IMG/VR virus record: IMGVR_UViG_2695420565_000021
Span: 1-7,128 of that record
Length of the DNA stretch: 7,128 nucleotides
Source of the DNA: a virus
Lineage: Duplodnaviria; Heunggongvirae; Uroviricota; Caudoviricetes
Strand: one strand, 5' to 3'
The notes beneath the pieces were generated by a model that searched no databases, was not told where the DNA came from, and saw nothing but the letters and a program-made list of their open reading frames with translations. The first letter of the stretch is position 1. Each line of letters begins with the position of its first letter. A program made the position numbers and the translations under genes. Shown one piece after another: positions 306 through 3,951 of this stretch.

Positions 306-942
306 TTACCAGGCACTGCGTGAGGCGGCAGAGCGTGCAATTCCGGCAATGGAACGCCTGTTAATGTTGCCAGTTGATGATGATTTGTTAAGTGAACAGG
401 AACTTAAAGATTACGGTGTGGATATTGATGCGCTCAACGCCTTCAAATTTCTGGCCGGACCAGAAACCGTGCTGGCACTACTGGATGAATGGGAAAGAAA
501 CCAGCAATACATCAAACGCCGCGACCAGGAGAACGAGGATATTGCGCTTACGGTTGGGAAGCTGCGCGTTGAGCTGGAAGGCAAAGACAGCAAAATAGCC
601 AATCTTACCGCCGAACGCGATGCTCTTCGTGAAGGTGAGATGGGCGACGCTAGGCATAGCAACACACGGGCCGCAGCTGATATCTACTTCCAACTGGTCG
701 AGGAATGCGAAATTCCTGCTGGCGGATCTCTGGTCGAGTACGTTGACGATATGCGCGAGAAGCTGGAAGCCGCAGAGAAGCGGATTGCTGAACTGGAAGC
801 GCGGGAAATATCGCTCCCAGAACGTAGCAGCATGCTTCATCGAACAGATTTTCACGAGGATTACCAAACGGTAATGGCATACAAAGTTTCTGAAGTCATC
901 GATGCAATCCGCGCTACTGGCATTCGCATCAAAGGAGAGTGA
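292..942 (+). CDS. Ea22-like prophage early-region protein with coiled-coil segments (216 aa)
   Basis: GTG start at 292 preceded by GGAGG at 281-285 (6-nt spacer). The translation has heptad-like charged stretches (IKRRDQENEDIALTVGKLRVELEGKDSKIANLTAERDALREGE, MREKLEAAEKRIAELEAREI) and an N-terminus MSEINYQALREAAE and C-terminus GIRIKGE that I recall as characteristic of lambda Ea22 and relatives. This is a memory-based assignment, not a search result. Confidence 0.7.
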   Translation: MSEINYQALREAAERAIPAMERLLMLPVDDDLLSEQELKDYGVDIDALNAFKFLAGPETVLALLDEWERNQQYIKRRDQENEDIALTVGKLRVELEGKDSKIANLTAERDALREGEMGDARHSNTRAAADIYFQLVEECEIPAGGSLVEYVDDMREKLEAAEKRIAELEAREISLPERSSMLHRTDFHEDYQTVMAYKVSEVIDAIRATGIRIKGE

Positions 943-943
943 T

Positions 944-1801
944 ATGAGCACTATCACTAAAGAACGTATCGAATTGTTCATTAAATCCCCGCTTGAAAAC
1001 GGGCTTACTCGTGGCGAACAAATGGAACTGGCACGAATTGCGCTGGCATCGCTGGAAGCAGAGCCTGTGGCGTATATCATTCAGGACTCTGACGCTCGTA
1101 GTCGTGGAGAGAAAGGCATCCTTCGCTATTTCGCAAATATCAGCGACGAGGATATAAACGAGTACGAAATTACCGTAACTCCGCTTTACGCCGCCCCTCC
1201 AGAGACGGTATCTGTGCCTGATGCGATGGAAATGGATGATGACTTTGACAGCGCGTTTGAACACGGAAAAGCTGTCGGCTGGAACGCCTATCGCGCAGCC
1301 ATGCTTCAGTCCGGAAACTTTCGGGAAAACAAGAATTCGTCAACCAATAATTTTCGTGAAATCGCGGAAACGTCAACCAACTATCCGGTAATTCCTAGTG
1401 AGGTGTTGTCCGCAATCCAGAAGGTTGCCAAGATTCGTGCCGATTTCGATGATTTTGACGGTGACAGGCGAGGTATCTGTGATTGTCTGGATGAGGCTGA
1501 GCAAGAGCTTATCGTTACCATTAACAAATATGCCAGTCAGTTGGCAGCAGAACCTATCGCGCCTAATGACGTTCGAGAGCAGACAGCCATTCCGCAAGTT
1601 CCGGTAACTCCGGATGGTTGGATAAGCTGTAGTGAGCGAATGCCGAAAGGGTATGCTGATGTGTTAGTGACCGATGGCGAGCATGTCGAGGTTAAATGGT
1701 GGGATGAATCTGGGTATTGGAATAGTTGGACGGAACTTAACTCAGATATCTTTGCCGATGAAATAACTCACTGGATGCCGCTACCAGAGCCTCCACTTTG
1801 A
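944..1801 (+). CDS. DUF551 domain-containing prophage protein (285 aa)
   Basis: ATG at 944 with SD AAGGAGAG at 932-939, one nucleotide after the upstream TGA (940-942), which suggests translational coupling. The C-terminus (PDGWISCSERMPKGYADVLVTDGEHVEVKWWDESGYWNSWTELNSDIFADEITHWMPLPEPP) matches the DUF551 signature as I recall it. The ORF-track start at 902 is in the same frame but lies inside the upstream gene and has no SD. Confidence 0.8.
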   Translation: MSTITKERIELFIKSPLENGLTRGEQMELARIALASLEAEPVAYIIQDSDARSRGEKGILRYFANISDEDINEYEITVTPLYAAPPETVSVPDAMEMDDDFDSAFEHGKAVGWNAYRAAMLQSGNFRENKNSSTNNFREIAETSTNYPVIPSEVLSAIQKVAKIRADFDDFDGDRRGICDCLDEAEQELIVTINKYASQLAAEPIAPNDVREQTAIPQVPVTPDGWISCSERMPKGYADVLVTDGEHVEVKWWDESGYWNSWTELNSDIFADEITHWMPLPEPPL

Positions 1802-1897
1802 AAGCGAAGCTTATACATATCTTTTACATCAGCAATCTATTGTTAATCTCCAATCAATGTTACGTTGTCATCTCACTCATGCTTTGGAGGTAGTGAT

Positions 1898-2077
1898 ATG
1901 TCTTGTCCAAAATGCGGTTCTGGAAATATTGCAAAAGAAAAAACAATGCGTGGATGGTCTGATGATTATGTGTGCTGCGATTGCGGATACAACGACTCTA
2001 AAGACGCATTTGGAGAGCGTGGTAAAAACGATTTTGTCAAAATTAATAAAGAACGCGAAGGCAACGAAAAAAGCTAA
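1898..2077 (+). CDS. Small Cys4 zinc-ribbon protein (59 aa)
   Basis: ATG at 1898 preceded by GGAGG at 1886-1890 (7-nt spacer). Product MSCPKCGSGNIAKEKTMRGWSDDYVCCDCGYNDSKDAFGERGKNDFVKINKEREGNEKS has a CxxC...CCxC cysteine arrangement and a Lys/Glu-rich tail. The gene is AT-rich relative to its neighbours and is followed by an intrinsic terminator. The ORF-track start at 1865 is a TTG without SD. Confidence 0.6.
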   Translation: MSCPKCGSGNIAKEKTMRGWSDDYVCCDCGYNDSKDAFGERGKNDFVKINKEREGNEKS

Positions 2078-2140
2078 TTTATTTATTCATATATGAAAAC
2101 AATGTAACCAATATTCGAATTGAAGAACTGAAAGAACACC

Positions 2141-2164
2141 AAGCCGCCTGATGGCGGTTTTTTT
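2141..2164 (+). terminator. Rho-independent terminator downstream of the zinc-ribbon gene
   Basis: Stem AGCCGCC (2142-2148) / GGCGGTT (2153-2159) with loop TGAT, running into a run of 7 T (2158-2164); located 64 nt after the zinc-ribbon stop codon. Confidence 0.55.
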
Positions 2165-2178
2165 ATTGGAGACAAGAA

Positions 2179-2523
2179 ATGTCAGATTTGGCTATGAAGG
2201 TTTTGAAATGGCAATCGACTGGCGATGTCGGCATCAGTAGCGCAACTCTTGCCTCAATCGCATGTGGACTGAAAAAGAATATCTATGGTCATCACTTCGG
2301 CGCTCCACATGACGCAGCAGACTTCCGGCGATGCGTTGCACTTGTTGAGCAGATTCCAGAAATCAGAGATTCATTCGACAAGGTTGCAAAGCGCGTTCCG
2401 GCATTCAAAGGAATCCTCAACGAATGGGATTCACTCGTTGCTCTGTTGAAGTCTGAAATGAAGATACACGAAAACAAAGCACCAGAGACTTACAGAAGAA
2501 TTAGCGAGCTACGCAAGGACTAA
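2179..2523 (+). CDS. Hypothetical prophage accessory protein (114 aa), family not recognised
   Basis: ATG at 2179 with GGAG at 2168-2171 (7-nt spacer). Soluble-looking product with no obvious transmembrane segment (MSDLAMKVLKWQSTGDVGISSATLASIACGLKKNIYGHHFGAPHDAADFRRCVALVEQ...). Flanked by a terminator upstream and hairpin plus T-tract downstream. Confidence 0.6.
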   Translation: MSDLAMKVLKWQSTGDVGISSATLASIACGLKKNIYGHHFGAPHDAADFRRCVALVEQIPEIRDSFDKVAKRVPAFKGILNEWDSLVALLKSEMKIHENKAPETYRRISELRKD

Positions 2524-2524
2524 C

Positions 2525-2543
2525 GCCTCACACTCGATGAGGC
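2525..2543 (+). other. Perfect 6-bp stem-loop immediately after the 114-aa gene stop, without a U-tract
   Basis: GCCTCA (2525-2530), loop CACTCGA, TGAGGC (2538-2543). It starts 2 nt after the TAA at 2521-2523. Could be an RNA-stabilising or processing hairpin rather than a terminator. Confidence 0.3.
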
Positions 2544-2562: not shown

Positions 2563-2585
2563 CCGCTATATGGCGGTTTCTTTTT
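2563..2585 (+). terminator. Weak candidate intrinsic terminator upstream of the AlpA-family gene
   Basis: Short GC stem CCGC (2563-2566) / GCGG (2573-2576) followed by TTTCTTTTT (2577-2585). The sequence resembles the terminator at 2141-2164 (CCGCCTGATGGCGGTTTTTTT versus CCGCTATATGGCGGTTTCTTTTT). Confidence 0.35.
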
Positions 2586-2600
2586 GCCTGGAGAATTAAG

Positions 2601-2792
2601 ATGACCGATACCAGCCTGATTCCTGAGAAAGAAGTGATGAACAAGCTCGGTGTTTCATCACGTCAGACAATCTGGAACTATACCAAACGGCACGGATTTC
2701 CGAAGCCAGTCAGAACCCACCCCAAATCATACCTTCGTGAAGCTGTTGAGGGGTGGATTCTTAACGGTGGCGTTAATCAGAAATGCTCCTGA
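2601..2792 (+). CDS. alpA: AlpA/Xis-family helix-turn-helix protein (prophage excisionase or integrase regulator), 63 aa
   Basis: ATG at 2601 with GGAG at 2590-2593 (7-nt spacer). Translation shows the AlpA-type HTH pattern (KLGVSSRQTIWNYTKRHGFPKPVRTHPKSYLREAVEGWI). Lies directly beside the integrase. An in-frame ATG at 2638 is an alternative start. The gene symbol reflects family membership only. Confidence 0.7.
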   Translation: MTDTSLIPEKEVMNKLGVSSRQTIWNYTKRHGFPKPVRTHPKSYLREAVEGWILNGGVNQKCS

Positions 2793-3951
2793 TGTGCCAG
2801 AACAATTTATCAGCGTGAAGCTCATACGCTTTGCGCTGAGCCTCTATCCAGTCGTGTTTATTGTATACGGACATTATCCCGCCAAGTTCATGACCGAGCA
2901 TTCGCTCAGTAACATGAGGCTCGACATTCATCTCGGACAGACGTGTAACAAGCGTTCTTCTGAAATCATGTGTTCGCCAGTAACCTAGATCCATCCCTCC
3001 CCTTATTCTATTTACGAATCGGTTGGCTGCAGCGATGCTGATCGGTTTGTTTATGTCTTCTCCAGGGAAAAGAACATCATTGTACGTTGTCATGGCCTTT
3101 TCGAGAAAAGGCTTAATTTGTTCGAATATTGGACGACGGATAACATTACCCATCTTGCTATGCTCTTTCGGTACGGTCCATACGTTGTCCAGCAGGTCAA
3201 ATTCTGTCTTTGTTGCCAGCCTAAGCTCTGAGAGCCTCGCCCCCCACAGCATAAGCATCTGATGAAGGAGCTTATTTGACGTAGACGCACGGCTTCTTTC
3301 AATAGCAAGCCAAATCTTAGCCAGTTCGTGATACGACAGTACCCGATCCCCTACCTCAGCGCGGGAGCCGAAGTCCCTTGGTTGGATGCTCATAATTGCG
3401 CAACTATCTATCAACTGACGCCGCATGCACCAACTTATTGCTGATCTTAGTTGACTTAGCACCTGCCTTGCTCGGCGTGGATTATCTCTTTCTTCTTCGG
3501 TAAGCAGGTCAACCCATTGCTTAACCGTGATAGAAGATGCCGGACGATTAGGAAAGGCGTCATGCATGCGCTTCATAACCGTTGATCGGTAAAGTGCCTG
3601 GGTCTTTTCTCTGAGAGTTGTAGAGACGTAGTTGTCGAACCAGTAGTCGAGACACTGGGCGACCGTCATGGAGTTCTCCACCTTCTCTTCAAAATAAGTG
3701 CGTGGATCCGTTCCTGAGAAATAGAGCTTTCGCAAGTCAGCAGTGATCTGTCTGGCATCCTTCAAAGACAGGGATGGGTATCGACCAAGCCCAAGTCGAT
3801 TAGGCTTGCCATGCCAGCGATAGCGGTACTGGAACTGGATGACCCCCTTCGGTGAAATTCGTACGCTGAGGCCATCGGCATCAGCCACTTCTTGTGGGCC
3901 CGAATATGGTTTACCATAAATAGTACGCAGTTTTGTGTCGCTTATAGCCAT
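2773..3951 (-). CDS. int: Tyrosine-type site-specific integrase of the P4/IntS type (392 aa)
   Basis: Full-length - strand ORF. N-terminal arm-binding-like region (LSVRISPKGVIQFQYRYRWHGKPNRLGLGRYPSLSLKDAR) and C-terminal catalytic signature (HDFRRT as the H-x-x-R box, and SVYNKH with the candidate catalytic Tyr). No SD before the ATG. Family named from memory of the fold signature. Confidence 0.9.
   Translation of the reverse strand: MAISDTKLRTIYGKPYSGPQEVADADGLSVRISPKGVIQFQYRYRWHGKPNRLGLGRYPSLSLKDARQITADLRKLYFSGTDPRTYFEEKVENSMTVAQCLDYWFDNYVSTTLREKTQALYRSTVMKRMHDAFPNRPASSITVKQWVDLLTEEERDNPRRARQVLSQLRSAISWCMRRQLIDSCAIMSIQPRDFGSRAEVGDRVLSYHELAKIWLAIERSRASTSNKLLHQMLMLWGARLSELRLATKTEFDLLDNVWTVPKEHSKMGNVIRRPIFEQIKPFLEKAMTTYNDVLFPGEDINKPISIAAANRFVNRIRGGMDLGYWRTHDFRRTLVTRLSEMNVEPHVTERMLGHELGGIMSVYNKHDWIEAQRKAYELHADKLFWHIRSISD

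What the first reader, a model, noticed from the sequence alone, without database searches (positions are those of the whole stretch)
2179..2523. 114-aa protein of unrecognised family as a candidate accessory (exclusion, defence or anti-defence) factor
I cannot place this protein in any family I know. It is a single soluble-looking protein with an unusual His-rich patch (GHHFGAPHDAADFRRC). Its position between a stand-alone small gene and the excisionase/integrase module is where prophages commonly carry cargo that is not needed for phage growth.
Basis: inference. Interest (0 to 1): 0.5.

Follow-up and report, generated by a model that had tools for sequence, protein, structure and literature searches.

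The report
Phage 434 ORF114-family early accessory protein
The 114-aa gene is real and is the long-catalogued but never characterised ORF114 of phage 434, one member of a very large phage-only protein family whose confidently predicted helical fold matches no solved structure; it most likely acts early in lytic growth rather than protecting the lysogen, but its function is still unknown.

Summary
The ORF (2179-2523, +, 114 aa, GGAG 7 nt before the ATG) is a real gene. dN/dS is 0.03-0.17 against phage alleles. It is not unplaceable: it is 98% identical to ORF114 of phage 434 (M60848), 99% to mEp043_029, whose record calls it similar to HK022p30, and matches phrog_1229 end to end. It occurs in 940 of 5,426 complete E. 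coli genomes. The family has at least 2,818 clusters at 50% identity, in phages and prophages of many phyla.

The His patch is not conserved. The family signature is W11, G18-x-S20-S21, P43-x-D45-P-x-D48-x-x-R51-C52, W83.

The gene is the last one before the excision/integration genes. Two terminator-like hairpins flank it and no promoter was found. The same slot is used in 434, mEp043, P22-like and Mannheimia phages. Other members lie in Mu-like early regions, in the virulent-collection phage Bas82 and in early-gene clusters of Vibrio and Clavibacter phages.

This favours an early lytic-cycle accessory role (counter-defence or host takeover) over lysogen-expressed exclusion. The mechanism remains inferred.

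The parts
2141..2166 (+). Upstream terminator-like hairpin (AAGCCGCC-TGAT-GGCGGTTT) followed by a T run. It overlaps the stop codon of a remnant of phage 434 ORF55.
   Evidence: Terminator scan. RNA fold: centroid stem of 8 pairs, z -2.35. Conserved in 434 and mEp043. 81% identical to the downstream hairpin (D2).
2168..2171 (+). Shine-Dalgarno GGAG, 7 nt before the ATG.
   Evidence: Read from the sequence. Invariant in window, 434, mEp043 and g341c.
2179..2523 (+). The gene: 114-aa soluble all-helical protein, ortholog of phage 434 ORF114, family phrog_1229.
   Evidence: ORF list. PHROG E 5e-52 over 1-114. 98-99% identity to 434 ORF114 and mEp043_029. dN/dS 0.03-0.17. AlphaFold2 pLDDT 96, pTM 0.89, seven helices.
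2305..2334 (+). Codons 43-52, the invariant family signature P-x-D-P-x-D-[FL]-x-R-C at the start of helix 3.
   Evidence: Invariant P43, D45, D48, R51 and C52 in 82 diverse members. A DNA pattern built on this motif retrieved 120/120 true members from viral contigs and 109/120 from genomes.
2209..2241 (+). Codons 11-21, the second conserved element W11-x3-G15-x2-G18-x-S20-S21: the helix 1 - helix 2 turn and the N-cap of helix 2.
   Evidence: W11 99%, G18 99%, S20 100%, S21 98%. Covariation couples D16 with R50, C52 and A54, which places this turn against helix 3.
2525..2543 (+). Hairpin GCCTCA-CACTCGA-TGAGGC immediately after the stop codon. It marks the 3' edge of the conserved ORF114 cassette.
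   Evidence: Invariant in window, 434, mEp043 and g341c; the sequences diverge a few bases later. Folded.
2563..2586 (+). Downstream terminator-like hairpin CCGC-TATA-TGGCGG plus T-rich tail, between ORF114 and the AlpA-like gene.
   Evidence: Terminator scan. Fold. Direct-repeat relation to the upstream hairpin. A terminator t'I is annotated at the equivalent place in 434.
2601..2792 (+). Context: 63-aa AlpA-type HTH protein, the putative excisionase/regulator.
   Evidence: phrog_66 'excisionase and transcriptional regulator' E 1.9e-8. Pfam Phage_AlpA E 3e-3, below cutoff. RefSeq names it 'AlpA family/helix-turn-helix transcriptional regulator'.
2773..3951 (-). Context: 392-aa tyrosine integrase, convergent with ORF114 and adjacent to chromosomal sbcB.
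   Evidence: Pfam Arm-DNA-bind_3 and Phage_integrase. phrog_1. The RefSeq locus carries sbcB, tsuB/yeeD and tsuA/yeeE next to it.
1865..2077 (+). Context: 70-aa zinc-ribbon ORF upstream. It is not a conserved partner of ORF114.
   Evidence: phrog_2945 E 5e-31. Weak matches to HVO_2753 and Lar, below cutoff. 434 and mEp043 carry the unrelated ORF55 here, and the Mannheimia and Klebsiella phages carry other small genes.

Best explanation
The gene is the E. coli prophage allele of phage 434 ORF114. It is a stand-alone, soluble, seven-helix protein of about 13 kDa from a very large family found in phage and prophage gene neighbourhoods.

Shown:
- It is a real gene under strong purifying selection.
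- It is a mobile cassette bounded by mosaic junctions.
- It occupies the last slot of the leftward early gene block, just before the excision/integration genes.
- Its family also occupies Mu-like early regions and early/replication gene clusters of other phages, with no fixed neighbour.

Inferred:
- It is transcribed with the early genes by read-through of the flanking terminators (N-type antitermination from a pL-type promoter). It would therefore be made after infection or induction, not in the resting lysogen.
- It acts alone during lytic development on something common to very different hosts: a conserved host protein, a nucleic-acid structure or a small nucleotide-type molecule.
- The most likely purpose is to neutralise a host barrier (counter-defence) or to redirect a host process (takeover).
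- The invariant residues S20/S21, D45/D48, R51/C52 and W83 lie at helix starts and a tight turn that covariation places next to each other. They either form the working site or lock the fold, while variable surfaces and variable N-terminal extensions supply specificity.
For: Identity and reality:
- phrog_1229 E 5e-52.
- 98-99% identity to 434 ORF114 and mEp043_029.
- 940 of 5,426 complete E. coli genomes carry it, 915 with at least 80% of the gene.
- dN/dS 0.03-0.17.
- 2,818 family representatives at E up to 1e-3.

Early, not lysogenic, expression:
- No sigma-70-like promoter in 1700-2900, against about 2 expected by chance. Terminator-like hairpins lie on both sides.
- Terminators are annotated around the homologues in 434, g341c and Mannheimia phage 1152AP2.
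- The exo-xis stretch of lambdoid phages is transcribed from pL and repressed by CI in lysogens (PMC10789677).

Useful in lytic growth:
- Members occur in Mu-like transposable-phage early regions between DUF3164/MuB and GemA/Mor: 15 loci in 6 lineages.
- Members occur in Nonanavirus KarinMuster/Bas82 of the BASEL collection, which focuses on virulent phages.
- Members lie among small early genes of Vibrio, Clavibacter, Klebsiella and Aeromonas phages.

Acts alone:
- No neighbour family recurs in more than 9 of 118 lineages.
- Most members are single-domain proteins of 105-140 aa.

Universal target or ligand:
- Seven invariant and five near-invariant positions persist at 25% mean column identity. 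The family spans Proteobacteria, Bacteroidota, Acidobacteria, Chloroflexi, Actinobacteria and Myxococcota. pI ranges from 4.5 to 10.1.
- Covariation puts the G15-G18 turn against R50-A54 and the 36-44 loop near D84.

Loose co-location with anti-restriction-type genes:
- C5 DNA methylase, other methyltransferases and a Lar-like gene.
Against: - There is no experimental datum for any family member. Every source calls it hypothetical.
- No similarity exists to any characterised anti-defence protein, by sequence (PADLOC) or by fold.
- Bas82, which carries a member, is markedly sensitive to the tested restriction-modification systems and to Old (PMC11990801). A broad anti-restriction role is therefore unlikely.
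- The invariant residues fit classical helix-capping boxes (S-x-x-T, D-P-x-D) and tight-turn glycines. They may be purely structural, which weakens the 'conserved binding site' argument.
- The promoter scan is a simple consensus scan and could miss a weak or non-canonical promoter.
- The lifestyles of several 'virulent-looking' phages were not verified.
- The gene neighbourhoods are equally typical of replication/recombination modules.
Confidence: 0.4

Rival explanations
1. DNA-metabolism accessory. The protein works on the phage's own DNA transactions (replication, recombination, nucleotide supply or DNA modification), for example as a small adaptor that binds SSB, a recombinase or a modification enzyme, rather than on host barriers.
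For: - Recurrent neighbours are SSB (21 loci, 6 lineages), RdgC (11 loci, 7 lineages), YqaJ exonuclease, DnaB, DUF5131, C5 DNA methylase, radical SAM, DUF4406 and Rv2179c-like exonuclease.
- P0105 lies next to a primase and a PAPS-reductase-like gene.
- In lambdoid phages the gene lies in the same leftward block as erf/abc2.
- One metagenomic protein fuses the domain to a CCA-adding enzyme.
Against: - No neighbour is constant. The best is present in 9 of 118 lineages.
- These gene sets are simply what early regions of phages contain.
- pI varies from 4.5 to 10, so there is no family-wide nucleic-acid-binding charge.
- The region is dispensable in lambdoid phages (PMC6213356 abstract).
- The CCA-enzyme fusion rests on a single 1.9-kb contig.
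Confidence: 0.22
2. Lysis-lysogeny or integration-excision modulator. Like other genes of the exo-xis stretch, it would tune the developmental decision, or assist Xis/Int, and is kept next to them for that reason.
For: - In 25 loci from 9 lineages the family gene lies 0.2-1.9 kb from an integrase gene (3.2 kb in one locus), upstream on the same strand in 19.
- The same slot is used in 434, mEp043, g341c, SE22 and, at 33% identity, Mannheimia phage 1152AP2.
- Other exo-xis genes (ea22, ea8.5, orf60a/61/63) affect lysogenisation and induction (PMC7093339, PMC3824215 abstracts).
Against: - The family is equally present in Mu-like transposable phages, where none of the 15 loci has a gene of the neighbouring integrase cluster, and in the virulent-collection phage Bas82.
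- The integrase/excisionase module next to it has been swapped (434-type versus P4/AlpA-type, convergent here) while the ORF is unchanged. It is therefore not co-adapted to a particular recombinase.
- No HTH or other DNA-binding family was detected.
Confidence: 0.15
3. Lysogen-expressed cargo (moron). It would give superinfection exclusion or anti-phage defence to the host.
For: - It lies next to the attachment-site end of the prophage, where cargo is common.
- The gene is bracketed by hairpins like an insertion cassette with sharp mosaic junctions.
- It is kept intact in 915 of 940 E. coli genomes that have it.
Against: - No promoter-like site lies upstream, and a terminator lies directly in front of the RBS.
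- No PADLOC match: best hit DndE, E 0.038, 11.8 bits.
- The family occurs in Mu-like early regions, and in lytic phages (Bas82) a lysogen-protecting function has no use.
- It is a single small helical protein without any recognisable effector domain.
Confidence: 0.07
4. The ORF is evolutionary filler: a selfish or decaying cassette without a function of its own.
For: - Truncated and chimeric copies are frequent in databases: P0015, P0048, P0063 and the phi296 remnant.
Against: - dN/dS 0.03-0.17.
- Invariant residues persist across phyla.
- A confident fold.
- Thousands of sequence clusters.
Confidence: 0.02

Closest known systems
ORF114 of bacteriophage 434 (GenBank M60848, protein AAA67902); also mEp043_029 (annotated as similar to HK022p30) and g341c gp20
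   Same: - 98% (434), 99% (mEp043) and 93% (g341c) amino-acid identity over all 114 residues.
- Same RBS and the same hairpin after the stop codon.
- Same place just upstream of the excision/integration genes.
   Different: - Here the neighbouring recombination module is an AlpA-type gene plus a convergent P4-type integrase, instead of the co-directional 434 xis-int.
- The upstream gene ORF55 has been replaced, except for its last ~15 codons, by a zinc-ribbon ORF.
- None of these homologues has a known function.
PHROG family phrog_1229, with the related phrog_15291, phrog_8038 and phrog_4212 (all 'unknown function')
   Same: Full-length profile match, residues 1-114 to profile positions 1-113 of 116, E 5e-52. 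Longer family members also hit the same PHROGs.
   Different: The PHROG entry gives no function and no category. The family has no Pfam or NCBIfam model.
Genes of the lambda exo-xis ('bin') stretch: ea8.5, ea22, orf61, orf63, orf60a
   Same: - Same genomic neighbourhood. An Ea22-like gene is in this window at 292-942.
- Same expected early transcription from pL.
- Dispensable for growth in the laboratory (PMC10789677, PMC6213356).
   Different: - No sequence relation.
- No solved structure resembles the model.
- Unlike those genes, this family extends far beyond lambdoid phages.
Small stand-alone phage counter-defence proteins that soak up immune signals (Acb2, Tad1, Tad2)
   Same: By analogy only, from general knowledge: about 100 aa, no partner gene, early gene regions, spread over phages of many hosts, a few strictly conserved polar residues.
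   Different: - No ligand binding or anti-defence activity has been tested.
- The oligomeric state is unknown. The natural two-domain member gave no confident domain packing, pTM 0.54.

Membership tests
phrog_1229 / phage 434 ORF114 family | Full-length profile match | tested here: met
   E 5e-52, residues 1-114 on profile positions 1-113 of 116.
phrog_1229 / phage 434 ORF114 family | Family signature W11, G18-x-S-S, P-x-D-P-x-D-[FL]-x-R-C, W83 | tested here: met
   All invariant positions of the 82-member alignment are present in the window protein.
phrog_1229 / phage 434 ORF114 family | Orthology to 434 ORF114: near-identity and conserved position before xis/int | tested here: met
   98% identity and the same flanking sequence from about 60 nt upstream to about 30 nt downstream.
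Any Pfam-A, NCBIfam or PADLOC family | Score above the curated cut-off, or at least a consistent weak hit across family members | tested here: not met
   - Pfam best hit DUF5798, 12 bits against a cutoff of 27.
- NCBIfam none.
- PADLOC best hit DndE, E 0.038.
- No Pfam family is hit by more than 3 of 82 members.
[not shown]
   - Foldseek PDB best E 1.7, TM 0.3.
- Profile against PDB sequences, best E 0.2.
- The AlphaFold database library was not available.
Prophage moron / lysogenic-conversion or defence cargo | Own promoter upstream and terminator downstream, allowing expression in the lysogen | tested here: inconclusive
   A terminator-like site lies downstream, but one also lies upstream, and no sigma-70-like promoter was found in 1700-2900. 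The scan uses a simple consensus, and no expression data are available.
Prophage moron / lysogenic-conversion or defence cargo | Restricted to temperate elements | tested here: not met
   Members occur in Bas82, a Nonanavirus of the BASEL collection, which focuses on virulent phages, and in Mu-like early regions.
Excisionase / recombination directionality factors | HTH or winged-helix DNA-binding domain; co-inheritance with a cognate integrase | tested here: not met
   No HTH family was detected. An identical ORF sits next to unrelated int/xis modules.
Anti-defence protein (functional class) | Restores phage growth on hosts carrying a defence system; binds or destroys a defence component or signal | not testable with these tools
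   Only indirect data exist: an early-gene context, and the sensitivity of Bas82 to the tested restriction systems and to Old.

The most novel reading that the evidence does not exclude
ORF114 is the founding, still unrecognised member of a new fold class of phage counter-defence (or host-takeover) proteins. It would use the invariant S-S / D-x-x-D / R-C site to bind or destroy a molecule common to bacteria of many phyla, for instance a nucleotide immune signal or a conserved host protein. That would explain why the same 110-aa module is kept in lambdoid, P22-like, Mu-like and virulent phages and is fused to many different N-terminal extensions.
Probability: 0.2. Interest if true: 0.7.

Novelty: new member of a known kind. 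Interest (0 to 1): 0.4.

Why it matters
The sequence is not new. It has been in GenBank as phage 434 ORF114, and PHROGs catalogues the family without a function.

What is worth knowing:
- This 'hypothetical protein' belongs to one of the larger uncharacterised phage families: at least 2,818 clusters at 50% identity, and present in 17% of complete E. coli genomes.
- It has no Pfam model.
- It has a very confident predicted fold with no solved counterpart.
- It keeps a handful of invariant residues from Actinobacteria to Proteobacteria.

It is carried by classic, genetically tractable phages (434, HK022, mEp043, P22-like phages) and by a BASEL-collection phage. Its role could therefore be tested directly with existing defence-system panels. 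If it proved to be a counter-defence or takeover factor, it would annotate thousands of phage genes at once. If it has no phenotype, it is one more dispensable exo-xis gene.

Tried and rejected
1. Family libraries. Pfam, NCBIfam and PADLOC on the protein, and Pfam on all 82 aligned members, gave nothing usable.

3. Domain fusions as functional clues.
- The 'DNA methyltransferase' overlap in phage phi296 is a truncated remnant in another frame.
- Proteins carrying PF04447, Ea22, ERF or Kil domains are mosaic recombinants or merged gene calls.
- Twenty longer members had no Pfam domain, except one CCA-adding enzyme fusion on a single 1.9-kb contig and one weak zinc ribbon.
- Their extensions hit no other PHROG.
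- A profile search with precomputed Pfam labels showed no further architectures among the 120 best hits listed, of 306.

4. A two-gene system with the upstream zinc-ribbon ORF was rejected. The upstream gene differs in 434 and mEp043 (ORF55), Mannheimia, Klebsiella and Vibrio phages. About 23 distant loci do, however, have an unrelated N-terminal zinc-ribbon extension.

5. A dimer hint from the natural tandem-domain protein P0243: both halves fold but pTM is 0.54, so nothing can be said.

6. The search for related loci with the diverse alignment failed because no stretch was conserved enough. A DNA pattern on the signature motif replaced it.

7. The first covariation run was corrupted by gap columns. 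The cleaned run is used.

8. Literature. Searches for 434 ORF114, phrog_1229, mEp043/HK022 with anti-defence, and the exo-xis papers found no functional statement on this gene.

9. Source names for ten distant clusters are all 'hypothetical protein'.

10. No Rfam family and no tRNA in the window.

Full report
**The observation**

The window carries an ATG-initiated ORF at 2179-2523 on the plus strand, encoding 114 aa. GGAG lies 7 nt before the start. The quoted peptide GHHFGAPHDAADFRRC is residues 37-52. No 19-residue window is hydrophobic enough for a membrane helix: the Kyte-Doolittle maximum is 1.02, and pI is 8.95.

- Ea22-like gene, 292-942.
- DUF551 gene, 902-1801.
- 70-aa zinc-ribbon ORF, 1865-2077.
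- The target ORF.
- AlpA-type HTH gene, 2601-2792.
- Tyrosine integrase, 2773-3951. It is on the minus strand, convergent with the target, which is the correction.
- Chromosomal genes that RefSeq names sbcB, tsuB/yeeD and tsuA/yeeE in an E. coli strain with the same junction.

The window is therefore the left end of a lambdoid E. coli prophage.

**The gene is real and already catalogued**

The protein matches PHROG family phrog_1229 end to end (E 5e-52; 'unknown function'). By tblastn its identity to phage genes is:
- 99% to mEp043_029.
- 98% to ORF114 of phage 434 (GenBank M60848).
- 93% to gp20 of Salmonella phage g341c.

The mEp043 and g341c records describe these genes as similar to HK022p30, and a distant family member also hit the HK022 genome.

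Megablast finds the gene in 940 of 5,426 complete E. coli genomes. In 915 of them at least 80% of the gene is covered, at 90-99% identity.

Nei-Gojobori dN/dS against the 434, mEp043 and g341c alleles is 0.05, 0.03 and 0.17. That is strong purifying selection.

The statement that it cannot be placed in any family is therefore wrong as to cataloguing. It is right as to function. Every source name seen for this protein and for ten distant clusters is 'hypothetical protein'. Full-text searches found nothing on it.

**Size and spread of the family**

A profile of six close relatives, run against 1.84 billion cluster representatives, found 2,818 proteins at E up to 1e-3 and 625 at E up to 1e-10. 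Most are stand-alone proteins of 105-140 aa.

An alignment of 82 diverse members has 25% mean column identity:
- Seven invariant positions: S20, P43, D45, D48, R51, C52, W83.
- Five positions at 90% or more: W11, G18, S21, L55, P60.

The three histidines of the 'His patch' (H38, H39, H44) vary even among 60%-identical relatives. The patch as such is not a feature. Only its second half, P-x-D-P-x-D-[FL]-x-R-C, is.

A degenerate DNA pattern for that motif retrieved 120 loci from IMG/VR, all confirmed by the family HMM. It retrieved 120 loci from GTDB genomes, 109 of them confirmed. The genome records are titled Gamma-, Alpha- and Betaproteobacteria, Myxococcota, Acidobacteriota, Bacteroidota (Pedobacter, Lutibacter), Chloroflexota (many Dehalococcoidia, Anaerolineae) and Actinomycetota.

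**Structure**

AlphaFold2 with the 82-sequence alignment gives a very confident model: pLDDT 96, pTM 0.89. It has seven helices (3-14, 19-28, 46-58, 60-72, 74-81, 83-96, 102-112) and a long variable loop at 29-45.
- Foldseek against 350,542 chains found nothing below E 1.7; TM was about 0.3.
- Profile and sequence searches of PDB sequences were negative.
- Foldseek against BFVD found only uncharacterised family members, such as Clavibacter phage CN1A, plus a weak match to a Sylvanvirus protein.
- The AlphaFold-database library was not installed.

The fold therefore has no solved counterpart, and no characterised protein with a solved structure resembles it.

The conserved residues sit at helix starts and in the helix 1 - helix 2 turn. 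A mean-field covariation analysis on 495 domain sequences gave these couplings:
- D16 with R50, C52 and A54.
- The 36-44 loop with D84.
- Helix 3 with helix 6.

The G15-G18-S20-S21 turn, the D45-C52 segment and W83/D84 are therefore probably neighbours in space.

Two readings remain. They may form a working site. Or they may be capping boxes (S-x-x-T, D-P-x-D) and small residues that lock an unusual fold. I could not inspect coordinates, so this stays open. pI across the family ranges from 4.5 to 10.1. That speaks against a generic nucleic-acid-binding protein or a DNA mimic.

**Genomic setting in this prophage**

The ORF is bracketed by two terminator-like hairpins with T runs, at 2141-2160 and 2563-2576. 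They are 81% identical to each other. No sigma-70-like promoter was found between 1700 and 2900, where shuffles give about two.

An alignment with 434, mEp043 and g341c shows a cassette that is nearly identical from the RBS to a hairpin directly after the stop codon (2525-2543). In 434 and mEp043 the identity starts about 60 nt upstream of the start codon. Beyond the hairpin the sequences diverge.

The 434 record annotates terminators tL4 and t'I around ORF55-ORF114. The g341c and Mannheimia phage records also annotate terminators next to the homologue.

The exo-xis stretch of lambdoid phages is transcribed from pL, which CI represses during lysogeny (PMC10789677). I infer that the gene is a delayed-early gene read by antiterminated transcription and is not a lysogen-expressed moron.

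**Genomic setting elsewhere**

I clustered the neighbours of 228 confirmed loci, which fall into 118 lineages at 60% identity. Cluster representatives were named with Pfam.

- Next to an integrase. A tyrosine integrase lies 0.2-1.9 kb away, and 3.2 kb in one locus, in 25 loci from 9 lineages. It is downstream on the same strand in 19 of them. Mannheimia phage 1152AP2, at only 33% identity, has the gene in exactly this slot. So do the P22-like phages g341c and SE22.
- Mu-like early regions. Fifteen loci from 6 lineages are Mu-like early regions (DUF3164, MuB, GemA, Mor). None of them has a gene of the integrase cluster.
- Other recurrent neighbours: SSB (21 loci), RdgC, DUF5131, C5 DNA methylase, YqaJ exonuclease, DnaB, radical SAM, DUF4406 and Rv2179c-like exonuclease.

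No neighbour occurs in more than 9 lineages, so the protein has no obligatory partner.

Members also lie among small early genes of Vibrio phage D56, Clavibacter phage CN1A, Klebsiella phage Carvaje and Aeromonas phage ST4. One is in KarinMuster/Bas82, a Nonanavirus of the BASEL collection, which focuses on virulent phages.

**Fusions**

- Apparent fusions with methyltransferase, PF04447, Ea22, ERF or Kil are frame-shifted remnants or mosaic recombinants.
- Many distant members carry N-terminal extensions of 60-160 aa. These fall into several unrelated groups without Pfam or PHROG matches. About 23 loci have a zinc-ribbon-like extension.
- One metagenomic protein joins a CCA-adding enzyme to the domain. 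It rests on a single 1.9-kb contig.
- Two proteins are tandem duplications with one degenerate copy. A model of one gave pTM 0.54, so it says nothing about dimer-like packing.
- The upstream zinc-ribbon ORF of this window is not a conserved partner. The corresponding gene is unrelated in 434, mEp043, Mannheimia, Klebsiella and Vibrio phages.

**Interpretation**

Shown: a real, selected, mobile, stand-alone phage gene of a huge uncharacterised family, placed in early accessory regions of temperate, transposable and lytic phages.

Inferred: early lytic expression and a role that pays during lytic growth in very different hosts.

My ranking:
- 0.40: an early accessory factor acting on a host barrier or host process (counter-defence or takeover).
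- 0.22: a helper of the phage's own DNA transactions.
- 0.15: a lysis-lysogeny or excision modulator.
- 0.07: lysogen-expressed exclusion or defence.
- 0.02: no function.

A broad anti-restriction role is unlikely. Bas82 carries a member yet is markedly sensitive to the tested restriction systems and to Old (PMC11990801).

**Novelty and interest**

The sequence and the family are already in databases. The function is not known to anybody, and the fold has no solved analogue. Uncharacterised phage families are common (about 87% of PHROGs). This one stands out by its size, its breadth, its invariant signature and its presence in classic tractable phages. I rate interest at 0.4.

The most novel reading not excluded is a new fold class of counter-defence or takeover protein with a universal target. 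I give it a probability of about 0.2.

Noticed in passing
window 2097-2151: The last ~15 codons of phage 434 ORF55 (…TNIRIEELKEHQAA*) survive here. The rest of ORF55 is replaced by the unrelated 70-aa zinc-ribbon ORF (1865-2077). This gives a sharp mosaic junction near 2095.
   Followed up: partly
window 2144-2164 and 2563-2583: The two terminator-like hairpins flanking ORF114 are 81% identical direct repeats (CCGCCTGATGGCGGTTTTTTT / CCGCTATATGGCGGTTTCTTT), 419 nt apart. A second pair of 31 nt (1806-1836 and 2539-2569, 74% identical) lies just after the stop codons of the DUF551 gene and of ORF114. These may be recurrent inter-cassette boundary sequences, or chance.
   Followed up: no
window 2601-3951: The integrase (minus strand; Arm-DNA-bind_3 plus Phage_integrase) is convergent with the AlpA-like gene and overlaps its 3' end by 20 nt. 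In 434 xis and int are co-directional with ORF114. The recombination module has been exchanged while ORF114 stayed. No tRNA gene is present; the prophage abuts sbcB.
   Followed up: partly
window 1865-2077: The 70-aa zinc-ribbon ORF (CPKCG…CCDCG) matches phrog_2945 (E 5e-31). Its matches to the HVO_2753 zinc-finger and Lar restriction-alleviation Pfam models are below threshold. It could be a small anti-restriction-type protein.
   Followed up: no
window 902-1801 (and proteins P0015, P0109): The N-terminal module MSTITKERIELFIK…ARIALASLE of the DUF551 protein recurs in front of unrelated C-terminal domains: PF04447 in P0015 and the ORF114 domain in P0109. It behaves as a shuffled N-terminal module of ea-region proteins.
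   Followed up: no
L005 37-1713 (protein P0159): A 558-aa metagenomic protein joins a CCA-adding/poly(A) polymerase head, RNA-binding and HD domains to an ORF114-like domain at its C-terminus. It is seen on one 1.9-kb contig only, so it may be a merged gene call.
   Followed up: partly
proteins P0243 and P0067; loci L132, L159, L064: Natural tandem duplications of the domain occur. In the two inspected, P0243 and P0067, the first copy has lost part of the signature (S-S, C52 or D45) while the second is intact.
   Followed up: partly
GTDB loci L139-L209 (Dehalococcoidia MAGs): About twenty of the 120 genome loci come from Dehalococcoidia, sometimes two per genome. Across the genome loci an SSB gene is the commonest neighbour just upstream (15 loci). 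In L155 there are ORFs that look by eye like a primase and an exonuclease. These are probably integrated phage-like elements.
   Followed up: partly
L008 3986-4369 (Mannheimia phage 1152AP2 gp33): At only 33% identity the homologue keeps the same slot directly upstream of excisionase-integrase and is flanked by annotated terminators, as in E. coli phages.
   Followed up: yes
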